Shown here: positions 1 through 63,199 of the stretch, piece after piece
Numbering within the stretch: position 1 is the stretch's first letter
How the letters are laid out: every line of letters starts with the position of its first letter
Assembly (NCBI GenBank): GCA_964016885.1
Contig: CAXHJY010000818.1
Location: 124,001 to 188,000, forward strand
Reading direction: 5' to 3'
Length of the DNA: 64,000 bases
Source: Eledone cirrhosa
Lineage: Eukaryota
Translations under genes and position numbers: made by a program
The notes under the pieces: model-generated
The model's database searches: none
Told to the model about the DNA's origin: nothing
The model's input: the letters and a program-made list of their open reading frames with translations, nothing else

Positions 1-2830
1 TTGGGTGGTCATAGCTAGAGTTGGGTGGACACAGCTGGTGTTGGGTGGTCATAGCTGGTGTTGGGTGGTCATAGCTGGTGTTGGGTGGTCATAGCTGGTG
101 TTGGGTGGTCATAGCTGGTGTTGGGTGGACACAGCTGGTGTTGGGTGGTCATAGCTGGTGTTGGGTGGTCATAGCTGGTGTTGGGTGGACATAGCTGGTG
201 TTGGGTGGTCATAGCTGGTGTTGGGTGGACATAGCTGGTGTTGGGTGGTCATAGCTGGTGTTGGGTGGTCATAGCTGGTGTTGGGTGGACACAGCTGGTG
301 TTGGGTGGTCATAGCTGGTGTTGGGTGGTCATAGCTGGTGTTGGGTGGTCATAGCTAGTGTTGGGTGGTCATAGCTGGTGTTGGGTGGACACAGCTGGTG
401 TTGGGTGGTCATAGCTGGTGTTGGGTAGACATAGCTGGTGTTGGGTGGTCATAGCTGGTGTTGGGTGGTCATAGCTAGTGTTGGGTGGTCACAGCTGGTG
501 TTGGGTGGTCATAGCTAGAGTTGGGTGGACACAGCTGGTGTTGGGTGGTCATAGCTGGTGTTGGGTGGTCATAGCTGGTGTTGGGTGGTCATAGCTGGTG
601 TTGGGTGGTCATAGCTGGTGTTGGGTGGTCATAGCTGGTGTTGGGTGGTCATAGCTGGTGTTGGGTGGACACAGCTGGTGTTGGGTGGTCATAGCTGGTG
701 TTGGGTGGTCATAGCTGGTGTTGGGTGGACATAGCTGGTGTTGGGTGGTCATAGCTGGTGTTGGGTGGTCATAGCTGGTGTTGGGTGGACACAGCTGGTG
801 TTGGGTGGTCATAGCTGGTGTTGGGTGGACACAGCTGGTGTTGGGTGGTCATAGCTGGTGTTGGGTGGTCATAGCTGGTGTTGGGTGGTCATAGCTAGAG
901 TTGGGTGGACACAGCTGGTGTTGGGTGGTCATAGCTGGTGTTGGGTGGTCATAGCTGGTGTTGGGTGGTCATACCTGGTGTTGGGTGGACATAGCTGGTG
1001 TTGGGTGGTCACAGCTGGTGTTGGGTGGTCATAGCTAGTGTTGGGTGGTCATAGCTGGTGTTGGGTGGTCATAGCTGGTGTTGGGTGGACATAGCTGGTG
1101 TTGGGTGGACATAGCTGGTGTTGGGTGGTCACAGCTGGTGTTGGGTGGACATAGATGGTGTTGGGTGGTCATAGCTGGTGTTGGGTGGACACAGCTGGTG
1201 TTGGGTGGTCATAGCTGGTGTTGGGTGGACACAGCTGGTGTTGGGTGGTCATAGCTAGAGTTGGGTGGACACAGCTGGTGTTGGGTGGTCATAGCTGGTG
1301 TTGGGTGGTCATAGGTGGTGTTGGGTGGTCATAGCTGGTGTTGGGTGGTCATAGCTGGTGTTGGGTGGTCATAGCTAGTGTTGGGTGGTCATAGCTGGTG
1401 TTGGGTGGTCATAGCTGGTGTTGGGTGGACACAGCTGGTGTTGGGTGGTCATAGCTAGTGTTGGGTGGTCATAGCTGGTGTTGGGTGGTCATAGCTAGTG
1501 TTGGGTGGTCATAGCTGGTGTTGGGTGGTCATAGCTAGTGTTGGGTGGTCATAGCTGGTGTTGGGTGGACACAGCTGGTGTTGGGTGGTCATAGCTGGTG
1601 TTGGGTGGACATAGCTGGTGTTGGGTGGACATAGCTGGTGTTGGGTGGTCATAGCTAGTGTTGGGTGGTCATAGCTGGTGTTGGGTGGTCATAGCTGGTG
1701 TTGGGTGGACATAGCTGGTGTTGGGTGGTCATAGGTGGTGTTGGGTGGTCATAGCTGGTGTTGGGTGGTCATAGCTGGTGTTGGGTGGTCATAGCTAGTG
1801 TTGGGTGGTCATAGCTGGTGTTGGGTGGTCATAGGTGGTGTTGGGTGGTCATAGGTGGTGTTGGGTGGTCATAGCTGGTGTTGGGTGGACATAGCTGGTG
1901 TTGGGTGGTCATAGGTGGTGTTGGGTGGTCATAGCTGGTGTTGGGTGGACACAGCTGGTGTTGGGTGGACACAGCTGGTGTTGGGTGGACACAGCTGGTG
2001 TTGGGTGGTCATAGCTGGTGTTGGGTGGTCATAGCTAGTGTTGGGTGGTCATAGCTGGTGTTGGGTGGTCATAGCTAGTGTTGGGTGGTCATAGCTGGTG
2101 TTGGGTGGTCATAGCTAGTGTTGGGTGGTCATAGCTGGTGTTGGGTGGACACAGCTGGTGTTGGGTGGTCATAGCTGGTGTTGGGTGGACATAGCTGGTG
2201 TTGGGTGGACATAGCTGGTGTTGGGTGGTCATAGCTAGTGTTGGGTGGTCATAGCTGGTGTTGGGTGGTCATAGGTGGTGTTGGGTGGTCATAGCTGGTG
2301 TTGGGTGGACATAGCTGGTGTTGGGTGGTCATAGGTGGTGTTGGGTGGTCATAGCTGGTGTTGGGTGGTCATAGCTGGTGTTGGGTGGTCATAGCTGGTG
2401 TTGGGTGGTCATAGCTAGTGTTGGGTGGTCATAGCTAGTGTTGGGTGGTCATAGCTGGTGTTGGGTGGTCATAGGTGGTGTTGGGTGGTCATAGCTGGTG
2501 TTGGGTGGACATAGCTGGTGTTGGGTGGTCATAGGTGGTGTTGGGTGGTCATAGCTGGTGTTGGGTGGACACAGCTGGTGTTGGGTGGACACAGCTGGTG
2601 TTGGGTGGACACAGCTGGTGTTGGGTGGTCATAGCTGGTGTTGGGTGGTCATAGCTGGTGTTGGGTGGTCATAGCTGGTGTTGGGTGGTCATAGCTGGTG
2701 TTGGGTGGTCATATGTGGTGTTGGGTGGTCATAGGTGGTGTTGGGTGGTCATAGCTGGTGTTGGGTGGTCATAGCTAGTGTTGGGTGGTCATAGCTGGTG
2801 TTGGGTGGACACAGCTGGTGTTGAGAATCA
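1..2830. repeat. 20-bp minisatellite (TTGGGTGGTCATAGCTGGTG)n, about 141 copies, truncated by the window start
   Basis: Strict 20-bp period with recurring variants (GGAC/ACAG, CTAG, AGGT); the last unit runs into TTGAGAATCA. Confidence 0.98.
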
Positions 2831-2843
2831 CTGTAGTACATAC

Positions 2844-3035
2844 CTAGAGCTGGGTGGACACAACTGCTGTTGGGAATCAAGTGTGTTGACCACCGACACA
2901 TCACACTGTTGGTGACAGGATATAAGTTGTTCATTGCTCATTTGGTGGTCAGCTGGAGGTGGTGGAGGATGTGGTGGTGGTGGAGGTGGTACTACCCTAT
3001 CAGTTTGGTCATCTGTGCGCTCCAGCATGGAAAAC
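2844..3035 (-). CDS. RYK: Probable RYK intracellular juxtamembrane exon, proline-rich (R|FSMLERTDDQTDRVVPPPPPPHPPPPPADHQMSNEQLISCHQQCDVSVVNTLDSQQQLCPPSS|R)
   Basis: Minus strand ttgttttaatgtcag|G...TCTAG|gtatgt; 192 nt, phase 2 at both ends, no stops, and matches the phase-2 end of the TM exon. I recognise no homology for the peptide itself. Confidence 0.62.
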
Positions 3036-3397: not shown

Positions 3398-4014
3398 CAA
3401 TGAAAATGTTAATAAATTTGATGAGACTGCAGGAAGAGCGTATGTCCAATTGTAGCACCGTGATATGTGTGAGGCCCCAACGAGTATTTAGTAAACCTGG
3501 GGCACTCCACAAGCCCCCAAGTTACCCCAGGGTGTAACTCTATATAGTATCTACGTCACCTTTTGTCACAACACCCTATTACTTCTATTTATATTATTGT
3601 TGTTATTATTTTAAAGTGTTTATATTTATCAAAAAAATTTTCCATAGTAATTTTATCTAAGAACCTTTGTTAAGTTCTGTTCCAAACACCATATGTCAAC
3701 ATGGCGCCCTCTACGTCTCCATCAGGAGTTACAGGACCACATATATATATATATATATACATTTATATGATGTCCAAGGGAAAGACAAAGGTCAATATAC
3801 ACCCCCACCATCGCCACCACCACCACCCCTACTACCGCCACCATCGCTGCTACCACCACCACAACCACCCCTACTACCACCACCACCGCCACTGCTGCCA
3901 CCACCACCACCACCTTACGGGCTTGATAACAGAAAGTACCAGTAATTCACTAGGGTTGATTTAACAGCCCCCTCTCCTTCGCCCAAAATTGTTGGCCTTG
4001 TGCCTAAGTCAGAA

Positions 4015-9205: not shown

Positions 9206-9521
9206 TAACAATTCTAAAACACTGTAGACTGTAGTTCCCTGCGGTGTGGGGGCAGTGCTGGAGGGGTTGTGATGTATCCGAGACTGAATGAACGCCGGAG
9301 ACTTGGAGACTACGCTAGGGATCGGAAAGTGAATGGAGATATTGTGGTGGAGGGAGGGGGGATTGTGGAGAAGGGAGTGGAGGGGGGGGGGGGGGGGGTA
9401 AGTTTTTAAGTAAGATACCTTCGGTTCCTTGGAGGTGACTCATAGTAAAGTCTCTCTCTCAATATATATACACACATATATATATATACACACATATATA
9501 TATATACACATACATACATAC

Positions 9522-9559
<38 letters not shown>

Positions 9560-9560
<1 letters not shown>

Positions 9561-10075
9561 AGAAGTTTAGGGAGCTGCTTCCTCTGCTGACGAAGAAGGG
9601 TTTCTCCCTGCGTACGAAAGGCCGGTTATATGATGCCTGTGTGAGGAGTGCAATGCTGCATGGTAGTGAGACATGGGCAGCAACTGCAGAGGATATGCGA
9701 CGGCTGGAGAGAAATGAGGCAAGCATGCTCCGTTGGATGTGCAGTGTCAATGTGCGTGAACGACCCAGCATAAATGTGTTGAGAGAGAAACTGTGTCTGA
9801 GAGGGATAGAATGTAGTGTATGGGAGAGGAGACTGAGGTGGTATGGACATGTGATGCACATGGAGGATGACCGATGGGTGAAGAAGTGCCAGGAAATGCC
9901 AGTTGAAGGAAGACGTGGTAGAGGTAGACCATGAAAAACATGGGCGGAGGTGGTGAGAACAGACCTCACGGTGGAGATGACGAAGGACCGTGACAAGTGG
10001 AGAGATGCTGAATAAGACCCGTCCCACCCTTGCAAGCAGGGAAGAGCGGACGTAGAATGATGATGATGATGATGA
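9560..10075 (+). mobile_element. 5'-truncated RTE-clade LINE (RT C-terminal region, 3'UTR, (TGA)n tail)
   Basis: Translates KFRELLPLL...LYDACVRSAMLHGSETW...RRLRWYGHV...EGRRGRGRP*KTW, typical RTE ORF end with a premature stop; TGA-repeat tail; flanked by (TA)n. Confidence 0.92.
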
Positions 10076-21735: not shown

Positions 21736-22233
21736 TTATATATACATATATTTCTGTCCAAAGACATTTCTACAGCAACAAAGGTCAAAAGGTGGTAGAA
21801 GTAACATCCACTTCTTCATCTCAACAGCAAAAGTCAACTTTTTTCTTCCTCCTTTTGTTTCCTTCCAGGTCACAGGGTCGGGTTAAAAGGTCCGAAGACC
21901 TAAAACTTCCAGTTTTGTGAAGTGAAGTGGATTAGATAGAAAATTTCCTTTTCAGATAAGGAGAGAGAGAGAGAGAGAGACAGAGAGAGAGGTGGTGGTG
22001 AAGAACTGAAGAAGTGTACTATCAAATAGAATGGTCTCTCCATAAAATCAACAAGATGCTAGCAGAAGACTTGAACCCAAGATCTGTTAGTCATTAATCA
22101 TTCTTTTCTTAAACACATAAGTATTTAAGATGGCAGCTAGAATCATAGCAGAGTGTTTTACAATGAGTAAACCTTAGGAGATGCAAACAAGAGAAAACTG
22201 GTGTATATTATCCTTTTCTTTGCACAAAAGTAG

Positions 22234-22947
22234 TTAAACCTTCTATTACCATATTTCTAATGAAAGACACTGTTTATGTCATTAACCCTTTCATTACCAT
22301 ATTTCTAATGAAAGACACTGTCTATGTCTTTAACCCTTTCATTACCATATTTCTAATGAAAGACACTGTCCATGTCTTTAACCTTTTCATTACCATATTT
22401 CTAATGAAAGACACTGTCAATGTCATTAACCCTTTCATTACCATATTTCTAATGAAAGACACTGTCTATGTCTTTAACCCTTTCATTACCATATTTCTAA
22501 TGAAAGACACTGTCCATGTCTTTAACCTTTTCATTACCATATTTCTAATGAAAGACACTGTCTATGTCATTAACCCATTCATTACCATATTTCTAATGAA
22601 AGACACTGTCTATGTCTTTAACCTTTTCATTACCATATTTCTAATGAAAGACACTGTCAATGTCATTAACCCATTCATTACCATATTTCTAATGAAAGAC
22701 ACTGTCCATGTCTTTAACCTTTTCATTACCATATTTCTAATGAAAGACACTGTCAATGTCATTAACCCATTCATTACCATATTTCTAATGAAAGACACTG
22801 TCTATGTCTTTAACCTTTTCATTACCATATTTCTAATGAAAGACACTGTCAATGTCATTAACCCATTCATTACCATATTTCTAATGAAAGACACTGTCTA
22901 TGTCTTTAACCTTTTCATTGCCATATTTCTAATGAAGGACACTGCCT
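22234..22947 (+). repeat. 48-bp minisatellite made of the MITE-B left end (TTAACCCTTTCATTACCATATTTCTAATGAAAGACACTGTCTATGTCT)n, about 15 copies
   Basis: 16-aa periodicity in the ORF track; the unit matches the start of the 33386 element. Confidence 0.93.
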
Positions 22948-23126
22948 AGGTTTATAATGACTAGACAGTATAAGGAGCAGACACAAGAAAACTTATGTCA
23001 TTTAATCCACCAAACTAAGATTCTTGTCACTTTATCACATTTTCTTAATTTATTTCTTTTTCTATTTCTCATTCAATCCTGATGAAGGACTAACGCTTGA
23101 AACATTGGTGGAAACAATTTAAAGAT

Positions 23127-25080: not shown

Positions 25081-26047
25081 TTAACCCTTTCATTACCATA
25101 TTTCTAATGAAAGACACACTGTCTATGTCTTTAACCCTTTCACAACTATATTTCTAATGAAAGACACTGTCTATGTCTTTAACCCTTTCATTACCATATT
25201 TCTAATGAAAGACACTGTCTATGTCTTTAACCCTTTCACAACTATATTACTAATGAAAGACACTGTCTATGTCTTTAACCCTTTCACAACTATATTTCTA
25301 ATGAAAGACACTGTCCATGTCTTTAACCCTTTCACAACTATATTTCTAATGAAAGACACTGTCTATGTCTTTAACCCTTTCACAACTATATTTCTAATGA
25401 AAGACACTGTCTATGTCTTTAACCCTTTCACAACTATATTTCTAATGAAAGACACTGTCTATGTCTTTAACCCTTTCACAACTATATTTCTAATGAAAGA
25501 CACTGTCTATGTCTTTAACCCTTTCACAACTATATTTCTAATGAAAGACACTGTCTATGTCTTTAACCCTTTCACAACTATATTTCTAATGAAAGACACT
25601 GTCTATGTCTTTAACCCTTTCACAACTATATTTCTAATGAAAGACACTGTCTATGTCTTTAACCCTTTCACAACTATATTTCTAATGAAAGACACTGTCA
25701 ATGTCTTTAACCCTTTCACAACTATATTTCTAATGAAAGACACTGTCTATGTCTTTAACCCTTTCACAACTATATTTCTAATGAAAGACACTGTCTATGT
25801 CTTTAACCCTTTCACAACTATATTTCTAATGAAAGACACTGTCTATGTCTTTAACCCTTTCACAACTATATTTCTAATGAAAGACACTGTCTATGTCTTT
25901 AACCCTTTCACAACTATATTTCTAATGAAAGACACTGTCTATGTCTTTAACCCTTTCACAACTATATTTCTAATGAAAGACACTGTCAATGTCTTTAACC
26001 CTTTTACAACTATATTTCTAATGAAAGACACTGTCTATGTCTTTAAT
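25081..26047 (+). repeat. Second 48-bp MITE-B-end minisatellite, about 20 copies, homogenised CACAACTA variant
   Basis: Direct reading; followed by MITE-B-like body (aaattttgaaaataatggagaatttg). Confidence 0.93.
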
Positions 26048-26374
26048 TTTCAGCAAATTTTGAAAATAATGGAGAATTTGGCTGGATGCCCTTGTTAATG
26101 CCAACATTTTCATGGTGTGTACCAGATTTGTTTTCTTGTGGTACCAGCACTACCACCTGACAGGCGGAACTAGGTGCCTGTTTCATCTCTACATCACTAC
26201 CACTTTACACTGTGGGCTAGCTACATACATACATTATCAACATTTTATATTTATGGTCAGTGCTGGTGTGGGTTTGATAGGTTGTCTCATTCTCAGATTT
26301 GACAAGTCAGACAACCATGTCTTCCACATACATTCCATTTTTGGTATGGTTTCTACAGGTGGATGTCCTTCACA

Positions 26375-35422: not shown

Positions 35423-35453
35423 TAAATGGAAACTATATTTATAAAACCATATT

Positions 35454-35515
35454 TATTCTATTATATACATTTCAAGGGTACCAAAAACTTTGGTACGCTT
35501 TCATCAGATAAAATA
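35454..35515 (-). ncRNA. Minimal type-I hammerhead ribozyme motif (mirror copy; sense in the RYK pre-mRNA)
   Basis: Reverse complement of 35625-35686; loop III is GUAU. Confidence 0.78.
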
Positions 35516-35624
35516 CAAAGAGTGTTTTATAAATTTTGACATAGCCAAGGAACATACCTTAACGGTTGAAGTTTTCCTTAAGGTATGTTCCTTGGCTATG
35601 TCAAAATTTATAAAACACACTTTG

Positions 35625-35686
35625 TATTTTATCTGATGAAAGCGTACCAAAGTTTTTGGTACCCTTGAAATATATATAATAGAATA
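35625..35686 (+). ncRNA. Minimal type-I hammerhead ribozyme motif
   Basis: UAUUUUAU-CUGAUGA-stem II (AAGcGUACCAAA/UUUGGUACcCUU)-GAAA-U-AUAU-A-UA^-AUAGAAUA; predicted cut after 35678. Confidence 0.8.
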
Positions 35687-35766
35687 AATATGGTTTTATA
35701 AATATAGTTTCCATTTATTTAATATCATTGTATATATATATATATATATACATATATATACATATC

Positions 35767-39443: not shown

Positions 39444-39501
<58 letters not shown>

Positions 39502-39622
39502 GGAGGTGAGTTTTATTGTAGCACAATAAAGCAATGCAAATATCGGATAAGTAGCACTCAACAGTTTATAGGAGTGGAGTATAAATAATATAAAACAAAA
39601 AGATTGTTAAAAGAGTTCCATG

Positions 39623-39693
39623 TATTTTATTATGCGCATTTCAAAAACAAATATCATCATGGGACGATATTTGCGTTCTCATCAGATAAAATA
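39623..39693 (-). ncRNA. Minimal type-I hammerhead ribozyme motif (mirror copy; sense in the RYK pre-mRNA)
   Basis: Reverse complement of 39773-39843. Confidence 0.8.
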
Positions 39694-39772
39694 GGGAGAC
39701 ATTAAATCAACATATGTTGATTTAACACTTCACTGCTCGCAAGTGTTTTTTAAGCTTCATATCATGTCTCCC

Positions 39773-39843
39773 TATTTTATCTGATGAGAACGCAAATATC
39801 ATCCCATGATGATATTTGTTTTTGAAATGCGCATAATAAAATA
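39773..39843 (+). ncRNA. Minimal type-I hammerhead ribozyme motif
   Basis: UAUUUUAU-CUGAUGA-stem II of about 15 bp (loop CCAU)-GAAA-U-GCGC-A-UA^-AUAAAAUA; perfect 8-bp stem I, palindromic loop III; cut after 39835. Confidence 0.84.
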
Positions 39844-39871
39844 CATGGAACTCTTTTAACCATCTTTTGAT

Positions 39872-40167
<296 letters not shown>

Positions 40168-47058: not shown

Positions 47059-49212
47059 CCCTTTAGTATTTAAACCAGCTGTAACCAGCCAGAATTCTCT
47101 CCCCTCTTTCTGTTTAAACTGGCCACTCATACTGACGTTAAGGTATTGTTCTCAAAATAAATAATATCAAAATCTTATAGATTCGATATTAAGTGAGATA
47201 ATTATGTGAGATAAAGCCTTTACTGTGAAAATACAATAGTATATATAGAGTAATGTAAATGTTATGTGAGATATTATGTGAGATAAAGCCTTTACTGTGA
47301 AAATACAATAGTATATATAGAGTAATGTAAATGTTATGTGAGATATTATGTGAGATAAAGCCTTTACTGTGAAAATACAATAGTATATATAGAGTAATGT
47401 AAATGTTATGTGAGATATTATGTGAGGTAAAGCCTTTACTGTGAAAATACAATAGTATATATAGAGTAATGTAAATGTTATGTGAGATATTATGTGAGAT
47501 AAAGCCTTTACTGTGAAAATACAATAGTATATATAGAGTAATGTAAATGTTATGCGAGATATTATGTGAGATAAAGCCTTTACCATGAAAATACAATAGT
47601 ATATATAGAGTAATGTAAATGTTATGTGAGGTATTATGTGAGATAAAGCCTTTACTGTGACAATACAATAGTATATATAGAGTAATGTAAATGTTATGCG
47701 AGATATTATGTGAGATAAAGCCTTTACCATGAAAATACAATAGTATATATAGAGTAATGTAAATGTTATGTGAGGTATTATGTGAGATAAAGCCTTTACT
47801 GTGACAATACAATAGTATATATAGAGTAATGTAAATGTTATGCGAGGTATTATGTGAGGTAAAGCCTTTACTGTGAAAATACAATAGTATATATAGAGTA
47901 ATGTAAATGTTATGTGAGATAATTATGTGAGGTAAAGCCTTTACTGTGAAAATACAATAGTATATATAGAGTAATGTAAATGTTATGTGAGATATTATGT
48001 GAGGTAAAGCCTTTACCATGAAAATACAATAGTATATATAGAGTAATGTAAATGTTATGTGAGATATTATGTGAGGTAAAGCCTTTACCATGAAAATACA
48101 ATAGTATATATAGAGTAATGTAAATGTTATGTGAGATATTATGTGAGGTAAAGCCTTTACCATGAAAATACAATAGTATATATAGAGTAATGTAAATGTT
48201 ATATGAGATATTATGTGAGGTAAAGCCTTTACCATGAAAATACAATAGTATATATAGAGTAATGTAAATGTTATGTGAGATATTATGTGAGGTAAAGCCT
48301 TTACTGTGAAAATACAATAGTATATATAGAGTAATGTAAATGGTATATGAGATATTATGTAAGGTAAAGCCTTTACCATGAAAATACAATAGTATATATA
48401 GAGTAATGTAAATGTTATGAGATATTATGTAAGGTAAAGCCTTTACTGTGACAATACAATAGTATATATAGAGTAATGTAAATGGTATGTGAGATATTAT
48501 GTGAGGTAAAGCCTTTACTGTGAAAATACAATAGTATATATAGAGTAATGTAAATGTTATGTGAGATATTATGTGAGGTAAAGCCTTTACTGTGAAAATA
48601 CAATAGTACATATAGAGTAATGTAAATGTTATGTGAGGTATTATGTGAGGTAAAGCCTTTACTGTGAAAATACAATAGTACATATAGAGTAATGTAAATG
48701 TTATGTGAGATATTATGTGAGGTAAAGCCTTTACTGTGAAAATACAATAGTATATATAGAGTAATGTAAATGTTATGTGAGATATTATGTGAGGTAAAGC
48801 CTTTACTGTGAAAATACAATAGTATATATAGAGTAATGTAAATGTTATGGGAGATATTATGTGAGGTAAAGCCTTTACTGTGAAAATATAATAGTATATA
48901 TAGAGTAATGTAAATGTTATGTGAGGTATTATGTGAGGTAAAGCCTTTACTGCGAAAATATAATAGTATATATAGAGTAATGTAAATGTTATGTGGGATA
49001 TTATGTGAGGTAAAGCCTTTACTGTGAAAATACAATAGTATATATAGAGTAATGTAAATGTTATGTGAGATATTATGTGAGGTAAAGCCTTTACTGTGAA
49101 AATACAATAGTATATATAGAGTAATGTAAATGTTATGTGAGATATTATGTGAGGTAAAGCCTTTACTGTGAAAATACAATAGTATATATAGAGTAATGTA
49201 AATGGTAAAGGG
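47059..49212 (+). mobile_element. MITE family A inflated to 2.15 kb by about 28 tandem copies of a 72-bp subterminal unit
   Basis: TTAA-CCCTTTAGTATTTA...TAAATGGTAAAGGG-TTAA ends retained; 24-aa periodicity in the ORF track; array at about 47190-49205. Confidence 0.92.
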
Positions 49213-49335
49213 TTAACTGACCGATTCCTTTTTATGCCAGTTGCCATTTAGATAGATGATGTCTTCTGTCATCGGACTGAAAGAGTTAATACTGCGATCT
49301 AGGTCACACGTGTAACACAACACTGCAATGTAGGT

Positions 49336-63114: not shown

Positions 63115-63120
63115 CCATGC

Positions 63121-63170
63121 CCATTCCGAGCTGAGGATCCGCTAAGGTGAAACAATTGTTCTCGGTGTGG
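63121..63170 (+). ncRNA. Minimal type-I hammerhead ribozyme motif, solo, inside a (TA)n tract
   Basis: CCAUuCCGAG-CUGAGGA-uCC-GCUAA-GGu-GAAA-C-AAUU-G-UU^-CUCGGuGUGG; palindromic loop III; U.U at the base of stem II; cut after 63160. Confidence 0.8.
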
Positions 63171-63199
63171 TGAACTAACTGTTGTCTAACCACTTCTAC

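What the first reader, a model, noticed from the sequence alone, without database searches (positions are those of the whole stretch)
39598..39868. Second, independent double-hammerhead palindrome with a T-shaped cap
Seen: 105-bp arms, each with an HHR that shares TATTTTATCTGATGA and TAATA(A/G)AATA with the 35.6-kb element. Its stem II is completely different yet still pairs, and its loop III is a different palindrome (GCGC vs AUAU). Structure is kept while sequence diverges, which argues for real ribozymes. The spacer folds into two hairpins, giving a T/Y-shaped end that superficially resembles parvoviral ITRs. Inference: a recurrent non-coding architecture (HHR fold-back elements), formed either by template switching during Penelope reverse transcription or as a mobile unit of its own.
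Basis: partly seen in the sequence, partly recalled or inferred. Interest (0 to 1): 0.82.

Follow-up and report, generated by a model that had tools for sequence, protein, structure and literature searches.

The report
Head-to-head Penelope retrotransposon stump
This palindrome is a short insertion of a very abundant Penelope-like jumping gene, made of two mirror-image copies of its hammerhead-bearing end, and patterns across thousands of sister copies show that the mirror image is built anew at each landing, likely because both broken ends of the target DNA start copying the element's RNA.

Summary
The palindrome is real: 105-nt arms (103 match), one type I hammerhead motif per strand. It is not its own mobile unit and not a parvovirus-like end. 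It is the 3' pseudo-LTR of a Hydra-clade-like Penelope-like element (PLE). Intact pLTR-ORF(RT + GIY-YIG)-pLTR copies carry the same hammerhead, and the family has 13,417 exact tail matches in this 3-Gb genome. The T-cap junction is unique genome-wide: an 11-nt fold-back plus a native leader hairpin. Head-to-head pLTRs with a one-sided tail are published PLE features. What the copies add: 31 of 53 position-sampled insertions pair a tailed arm with a tail-less arm, and in 8 the arms barely or never overlap, which excludes simple fold-back copying. 5' ends pile up at one base 69 nt before the ribozyme core and often carry an extra G (12 of 35 against 6 of 88 elsewhere), as expected for a capped RNA start. 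This favours double target-primed reverse transcription on sense RNA over the published antisense self-priming idea. Stem II covaries across sister families; cleavage is untested. The scan noted similar palindromes earlier in a shark-like genome.

The parts
39446..39496 (.). (TA)n target tract, left
   Evidence: sequence
39497..39580 (-). 84-nt one-sided PLE tail; in intact copies it runs straight into the ORF leader
   Evidence: 13,417 exact matches to a 25-nt tail motif
39581..39702 (-). left (tailed) pLTR arm, 5'-truncated about 17 nt before the hammerhead core
   Evidence: 94% to natural copy L145, positions 3460-3673 including the tail
39623..39693 (-). type I hammerhead motif, predicted cut between 39631 and 39630
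39703..39713 (-). 11-nt inverted duplication of the element's 5' start (first hairpin of the T-cap); this junction is unique in the genome
39712..39715 (+). ATAT at the family's 5'-end hot spot (likely capped transcription start, 69 nt before the core); self-complementary, axis of the small hairpin
39712..39887 (+). right (tail-less) pLTR arm from the hot spot to the inner 3' end, which merges into (TA)n
   Evidence: 97% to L145 positions 3416-3590
39725..39747 (+). native leader stem-loop of the family (second hairpin of the T-cap)
39773..39843 (+). type I hammerhead motif: stem I 8 bp, CUGAUGA, long stem II, GAAA, 8-nt palindromic stem III, predicted cut after 39835
39875..40038 (.). (TA)n target tract, right
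   Evidence: sequence
35423..35730 (.). the 35.6-kb palindrome: same layout, from a sister PLE family
   Evidence: 2,829 exact core matches; variable junctions and one-sided tail; arms flank RT/EN fragments of 40-63% amino-acid identity in L215 and L217

Best explanation
The palindrome is one short head-to-head insertion of the hammerhead-bearing end repeat of an abundant Penelope-like retrotransposon into a TA tract, likely made when both cut ends of the target primed reverse transcription on the element's sense RNA and the two copies were joined at their far ends. One priming site is the tail end and the other lies 83 nt inside it, which gives one tailed and one tail-less arm. The right copy ran to the likely capped RNA start; the left copy stopped about 50 nt short of it. 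A short fold-back of the self-complementary ATAT start, added during joining, makes the T-cap. Shown: identity, layout, a unique junction, non-overlapping arm pairs, the 5' hot spot and the extra G. Inferred: double priming, the cap, the joining route and ribozyme activity. The hammerhead is a passenger of the pLTR and would be sequestered in a transcript of the whole palindrome. Confidence is about 0.95 for identity and about 0.7 for double priming.
For: Intact pLTR-ORF-pLTR copies with this hammerhead and tail: L145, L146. RT (YRDD) and C-terminal GIY-YIG-like domain. All 6 long copies fetched have an inverted tail-less arm upstream. Of 53 consecutive core-anchored loci on contig C1 (hand tally, sums): 31 tail/tail-less pairs, 1 tail/tail, 1 tail-less/tail-less, 5 inverted with a truncated partner, 15 single. 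In 8 of the 31 the tailed arm lies almost wholly 3' of the partner's end (7 junctions shown, 1). In an independent tail-anchored sample, 11 of 15 tail-only arms have an inverted partner. The arms share a source: 62 of 62 pairs are of one subfamily, with 18 shared rare variants against 1.1 in 2,000 within-subfamily permutations. Hot spot: 24 of 86 tail arms. G before it in 12 of 35 against 6 of 88 other ends, p = 0.0003; genome-wide G 2,322, T 1,933, A 728 where the parent has C. An extra G marks capping in L1 insertions (PMC11702581, passages). A PLE protein cuts and extends both strands and starts RT at two sites that bound the tail in vitro (PMC11167929, parts 1-2).
Against: No RNA or protein data. 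15 of 53 loci have a single arm. Short fold-backs at the junction are real (window, L015, L017; 852 central ATAT palindromes), so self-priming also occurs. Shared rare variants also fit fold-back copying or later gene conversion. Some extra Gs can be read as microhomology with the partner arm (L242, L297, L270). None of 19 ORF-spanning copies with an upstream repeat starts at the hot spot; 13 run past it, so that start is not the 5' end of their templates. The window's own junction has no extra G.
Confidence: 0.72

Rival explanations
1. Single priming followed by fold-back: one cDNA is made, its 3' end folds back and copies itself (or an antisense RNA self-primes, as proposed in PMC3846280), and the hairpin is integrated.
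For: Palindromes sit at many junctions (852 central ones; the window's 11-nt fold-back). Arms share rare variants. It is the published interpretation (PMC3846280, Discussion).
Against: A fold-back copy cannot hold sequence that the first strand lacks, yet the tail-less arm is the longer one in 25 of 31 pairs while its partner carries the tail, and 8 of 31 pairs barely or never overlap. The extra G at a fixed sense 5' end points to a capped sense template.
Confidence: 0.18
2. The short palindrome is itself a non-autonomous mobile unit (MITE-like or with parvovirus-type ends) that is copied whole.
For: Many copies are short and share the same axis; the BLAST-ranked hits are mostly whole palindromes.
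Against: The window's junction is unique. Junctions differ among the 26 best hits apart from a duplicated pair. One arm has a tail, so the ends are not terminal inverted repeats. Arm-to-arm differences were not shared among the 5 gap-free perfect palindromes compared. The same arms extend into the RT/EN ORF in other copies.
Confidence: 0.04
3. Two independent insertions landed back to back in the same TA tract at different times.
For: The family targets (TA)n; clustered and nested insertions occur (L117, L129, L164); one arm in L011 is chimeric.
Against: Arms are joined directly without TA between them, pair tail with tail-less in 31 of 33 complete pairs, match in subfamily in 62 of 62 and share rare variants.
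Confidence: 0.06

Closest known systems
Hydra-clade EN+ Penelope-like elements (Craig et al. 2021, PMC8557442), for example Penelope-13_HM with an inverted 5'-truncated copy, and Hydra-1_Obim
   Same: Single ORF with RT and C-terminal GIY-YIG; DKT, CxCX5C, CxxC and CxH motifs; type I hammerhead in the pLTR; (TA)n targets; partial tandems; inverted 5'-truncated copy; one-sided tail.
   Different: Unit 3.5-3.7 kb (described as generally under 3 kb); tail 84 nt (described as 30-40 bp for PLEs); stem II about 16 bp with a C-pyrimidine mismatch, longer than the Hydra hammerheads listed in File S2; more than 13,000 copies; RWK reads RWT or RWI.
Inverted pLTRs with junction palindromes in Adineta Penelope elements (Arkhipova et al. 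2013, PMC3846280)
   Same: Head-to-head pLTRs, optional tail on one, palindrome at the inverted junction, Inr-like motif in the pLTR, Asn-rich stretch between RT and EN.
   Different: There interpreted as self-priming on an antisense template from a few copies; here the copy statistics favour two primings on sense RNA.
PAc Poseidon element in vitro (Frangieh et al. 2024, PMC11167929)
   Same: Both strands cut and extended, AT-rich targets, two RT start sites bounding the tail, uncleaved RNA as template.
   Different: A different clade; in the parts read, the paper does not derive head-to-head insertions from these activities.
LINE-1 twin priming (PMC11702581, passages)
   Same: Both target ends prime RT on the RNA and the cDNAs are joined; an extra G marks the cap.
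   Different: In L1 the second priming site is internal and variable and is the exception; here both sites are fixed and pairs are the majority.
Non-LTR retrozymes (bioRxiv 10.64898/2026.07.22.740005, part 1 of 5)
   Same: Non-coding type I hammerhead repeats related to PLE pLTRs.
   Different: Retrozymes are direct tandem repeats; this is an inverted pair with a unique junction.
Parvoviral T-shaped ITRs (recalled, no call)
   Same: Only the drawing of two small hairpins on a long stem.
   Different: The cap is AT-rich, lopsided and not conserved between copies; it is internal to the insertion; no Rep gene was seen in the window.

Membership tests
EN+ Penelope-like element | Single ORF with RT and GIY-YIG endonuclease linked to this repeat | tested here: met
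   L145 and L146 pLTR-ORF-pLTR; 715- and 821-residue open frames; motifs. Pfam gave no significant hit for 4 fragments, so the assignment rests on motifs and on comparison by eye with published Hydra proteins.
EN+ Penelope-like element | pLTR from partial tandem, inverted 5'-truncated copy, one-sided tail | tested here: met
Hydra clade | DKG changed to DKT; GxKF/Y absent | tested here: met
   DKT present and no GxK[FY] in L098 and L102
Hydra clade | CxCX5C linker; CxxC and CxH around the conserved E and N; no CCHH | tested here: met
   All three motifs in both ORFs; only one Cys inside the GIY-YIG core, by inspection
Hydra clade | RWK motif | tested here: inconclusive
   RW is kept, the third residue is T or I; the published Hydra-1_Crog has RWR
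Hydra clade | Canonical hammerhead and (TA)n insertion | tested here: met
Hydra clade | Generally shorter than 3 kb (descriptive, not diagnostic) | tested here: not met
   Unit lengths 3,673 and 3,480 nt
Hydra clade | Placement in the RT tree with named Hydra elements | not testable with these tools
Type I hammerhead ribozyme | CUGANGA, GAAA, UH core with stems I-III and covariation | tested here: met
   Two-sided changes in 9 of 10 stem II pairs and 5 of 8 stem I pairs over 11 hand-picked sequences; slid controls give 4-5 of 17-20 pairs. Position 10.1-11.1 is G-U or A-U, not the usual G-C.
Type I hammerhead ribozyme | Self-cleavage | not testable with these tools
   Genomic 5' ends at the cut site: 104 matches, 27 of the 100 listed beginning GC (mostly 3-nt deletions), against 18 and 41 at two control sites; biased by ATA microhomology, so inconclusive
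Non-LTR retrozyme | Direct tandem repeats with a hammerhead in each unit | tested here: not met
   Inverted pair; no array of short units in the 53 loci
MITE or parvovirus-like unit | Same terminal structure and junction in many copies | tested here: not met
   Junction unique; asymmetric ends

The most novel reading that the evidence does not exclude
The genome records the PLE cycle directly. Double target-primed reverse transcription at two fixed sites is the normal route, and two different RNAs serve as templates: an uncleaved, capped RNA that starts 69 nt before the hammerhead and gives the short palindromes, and a capless circular or multimeric RNA, possibly cut and joined by the hammerheads, that gives ORF-spanning copies whose upstream repeat runs seamlessly past that start (13 of 19; none stops there).
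Probability: 0.3. Interest if true: 0.72.

Novelty: new member of a known kind. Interest (0 to 1): 0.4.

Why it matters
The element is an ordinary product of a known retrotransposon class, so the palindrome alone matters little. But how PLEs make their tandem and inverted insertions is stated as unresolved (PMC8557442). This family offers more than 13,000 young copies, intact 821-codon frames, two fixed 3' ends and one fixed 5' end. They give sharp predictions (both-strand priming, a capped start, perhaps a circular template) that differ from the published antisense self-priming idea and can be tested with the existing in vitro assay. It also warns annotators that such palindromes are not MITEs or viral ends.

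Tried and rejected
Rfam at gathering score: no match in the window. Pfam: no significant family for 4 ORF fragments. RNA runs: no RNA holder listed, so no reads were laid. No PLE ORF remnant in the window by tblastn. Neptune clade was my first guess from the cysteine knuckle; dropped because the motifs fit the Hydra description. A pile-up of 5' ends at the hammerhead cut site was suggested by L239, L238 and L148 but was not seen in the position-sampled set (0 of 88 anchored ends within 2 nt) and was only 2- to 4-fold over two controls genome-wide: inconclusive. One search removed identical young copies by mistake and was redone by coordinate. The class counts mixed read-through arms into 'free ends' and were replaced. 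Apparent arm discordance at positions 3576-3579 is an alignment artefact and was left out. L005 was dropped there as a duplicate of L003. Literature searches that found no paper describing twin priming or a cap-derived G for PLEs: (open-access library only; subscription papers such as Evgen'ev and Arkhipova 2005 or Schostak 2008 were not seen). The bioRxiv supplements are closed and may bear on retrozyme relatives.

Full report
Observation. The arms (39598-39702 and 39764-39868) are 105 nt with two mismatches, and the 61-nt spacer folds into two hairpins plus 17 unpaired bases. Each arm holds a type I hammerhead motif, one per strand, with an 8-bp stem I, CUGAUGA, a long stem II, GAAA and an 8-nt palindromic stem III. 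Rfam does not detect it at gathering score. An 84-nt segment continues the left arm only (39497-39580), and the whole unit sits in (TA)n.

It is a large family. The window lies in a 3.0-Gb genome. A 24-nt core motif matches 1,747 times and a 25-nt tail motif 13,417 times. Longer copies continue upstream through a pyrimidine-rich 3' UTR into a GIY-YIG-like domain and an RT. L145 and L146 show pLTR-ORF-pLTR with this hammerhead in both repeats and the tail running into the ORF leader. An RT search gave 48,331 candidates, 103 scored, many in open frames of about 821 codons. The protein has DKT, YRDD, CxCX5C, CxxC and CxH and lacks GxKF/Y. These are the features given for the Hydra clade of Penelope-like elements, which insert in (TA)n and carry hammerheads (PMC8557442: section 11, passages and supplement parts 1, 2 and 8 read). 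No tree was built, and the unit is longer than the clade's usual size. The 35.6-kb palindrome belongs to a sister family: 2,829 core matches, variable junctions and a one-sided tail, and arms flanking RT/EN fragments in L215 and L217.

The T-cap is a junction by-product. Against the natural copy L145, the right arm runs from position 3416 to the inner 3' end (3590) and the left arm from the tail end (3673) to about 3468. Between them lies an 11-nt inverted copy of the element's first bases; the second hairpin is a leader stem-loop of the family. This exact junction occurs once in the genome with one mismatch allowed. The 26 best whole-palindrome hits have different junctions, apart from the duplicated pair L003 and L005. 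Head-to-head pLTRs with a one-sided tail and junction palindromes are published (PMC8557442 Fig. 2 legend; PMC3846280 passages and Discussion).

How the two arms arise. I took 53 consecutive core-anchored loci on contig C1 (the first 64 of 100 listed matches). By hand tally, 31 are tail/tail-less pairs, 1 tail/tail, 1 tail-less/tail-less, 5 inverted with a truncated partner and 15 single. The tail-less arm reaches further 5' in 25 pairs, equally far in 3 and less far in 3. In 8 pairs the tailed arm lies almost wholly beyond the partner's 3' end, so neither arm can be a fold-back copy of the other. An independent tail-anchored sample (91 matches, 90 scored, 86 true tail ends) agrees. Of 66 arms with a 5' end within about 260 nt of the core, 54 have an adjacent inverted partner; 35 partners end at the inner site, 3 at the tail end and 13 run out of view; 11 of 15 tail-only arms have a partner. 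Both arms come from one source: among 62 overlapping pairs (position-sampled and BLAST-ranked loci pooled, L005 dropped) all agree in subfamily, they share 18 rare variants against 1.1 in within-subfamily permutations, and differ by 3.3% against 4.7%; gene conversion could add to this. A purified PLE protein cuts and extends both target strands and starts RT at two sites that bound the tail (PMC11167929, parts 1-2 of 4). Double priming, as in L1 twin priming but at two fixed sites, explains the layout. This step is inference.

A fixed 5' end. 24 of 86 tail arms start within a few bases of one site 69 nt before the core. The parent has C before it, yet G stands there in 12 of 35 non-palindromic ends against 6 of 88 other ends (p = 0.0003). 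Genome-wide the counts are G 2,322, T 1,933 and A 728, while G is 20% of the antisense pLTR. An extra G marks the cap in full-length L1 insertions (PMC11702581 passages). In the sister family, 5 ends at an Inr-like ACT site also have G before them (L177, L181, L187, L201, L205; read by eye). Some of these Gs can be partner microhomology. The start is self-complementary (ATAT), which explains 852 central palindromes and the window's small fold-back. This argues for a capped sense template, against the antisense self-priming proposal. Against a simple picture: of 27 ORF-bearing loci, 19 have an upstream repeat; 13 run past the site, 6 stop short and none stops at it. Their templates were therefore probably multimeric or circular.

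The ribozyme. Over 11 natural motifs that I picked from 231 distinct ones in the held loci, 14 of 20 pairs show two-sided changes and slid controls show 4-5. Stem II pairing was not part of the descriptor, so its 9 of 10 is the informative part; related sequences inflate the shuffle control. The palindromic stem III fits the dimer-dependent type described for PLEs, which cleave weakly in vitro (PMC4209133 passages). In a transcript of the whole palindrome the arm-arm hairpin (-174 kcal/mol) far outweighs the hammerhead fold (-77), so it is predicted to be inactive there. Genomic ends at the cut site are too few to decide. No RNA run was available.

Verdict. A new, very abundant member of a known kind (Hydra-like PLE), with the published head-to-head layout. 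The architecture is not new, and the parvovirus likeness is superficial. The copy statistics make the open question of PLE integration testable. Open-access searches found no paper on twin priming or a cap-derived G in PLEs. The retrozyme preprint was read in part 1 of 5 only; PMC10018344 passages added nothing. Two earlier scan notes from a shark-like genome reached similar readings; they were seen after mine was formed and are not counted as support.

Noticed in passing
window 63115-63190: A third hammerhead-like motif (core CUGAGGA, palindromic stem III) between TA tracts; the same family forms head-to-head pairs in L105, L107 and L134, with a one-sided tail in L105 and L134.
   Followed up: partly
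window 40039-40165: Another inverted repeat of about 55-nt arms just right of the TA tract, containing what looks like the 3' half of a hammerhead; possibly a stump of a fourth PLE family.
   Followed up: no
L115:5088-5153, L129:8180-8245, L112:5151-5212, L117:3570-3630: At least two more hammerhead families with the same C-C mismatch at stem II position 4; the mismatch may be a tertiary contact.
   Followed up: partly
window 35578-35590 and its copies: The 35.6-kb family has a splice-donor-like AG/GTATG about 25 nt after its likely start; Penelope has a 5' UTR intron (PMC8557442). No acceptor was looked for.
   Followed up: no
L098 ORF, residues about 600-680: Asn-rich low-complexity linker between RT and EN, as described for Adineta Penelope elements (PMC3846280).
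   Followed up: no
L011; L003 and L005: L011 has one arm that switches subfamily near its 3' end; L003 and L005 are a duplicated locus about 1 Mb apart on C1.
   Followed up: partly
window 9449-9934: Open frame that resembles the C-terminal part of an RTE-type LINE (recalled motif, not searched).
   Followed up: no
L062:2-394; L051:2470-3000; L134:6551-7189: Fragments that resemble a Helitron helicase, a mariner transposase and a restriction-like endonuclease of a non-LTR element (recalled, not searched).
   Followed up: no
window 1-2900, 22167-22949, 25085-26098, 47167-49247: Long minisatellite arrays (the first with a 20-nt unit; the others seen as repeating frames).
   Followed up: no
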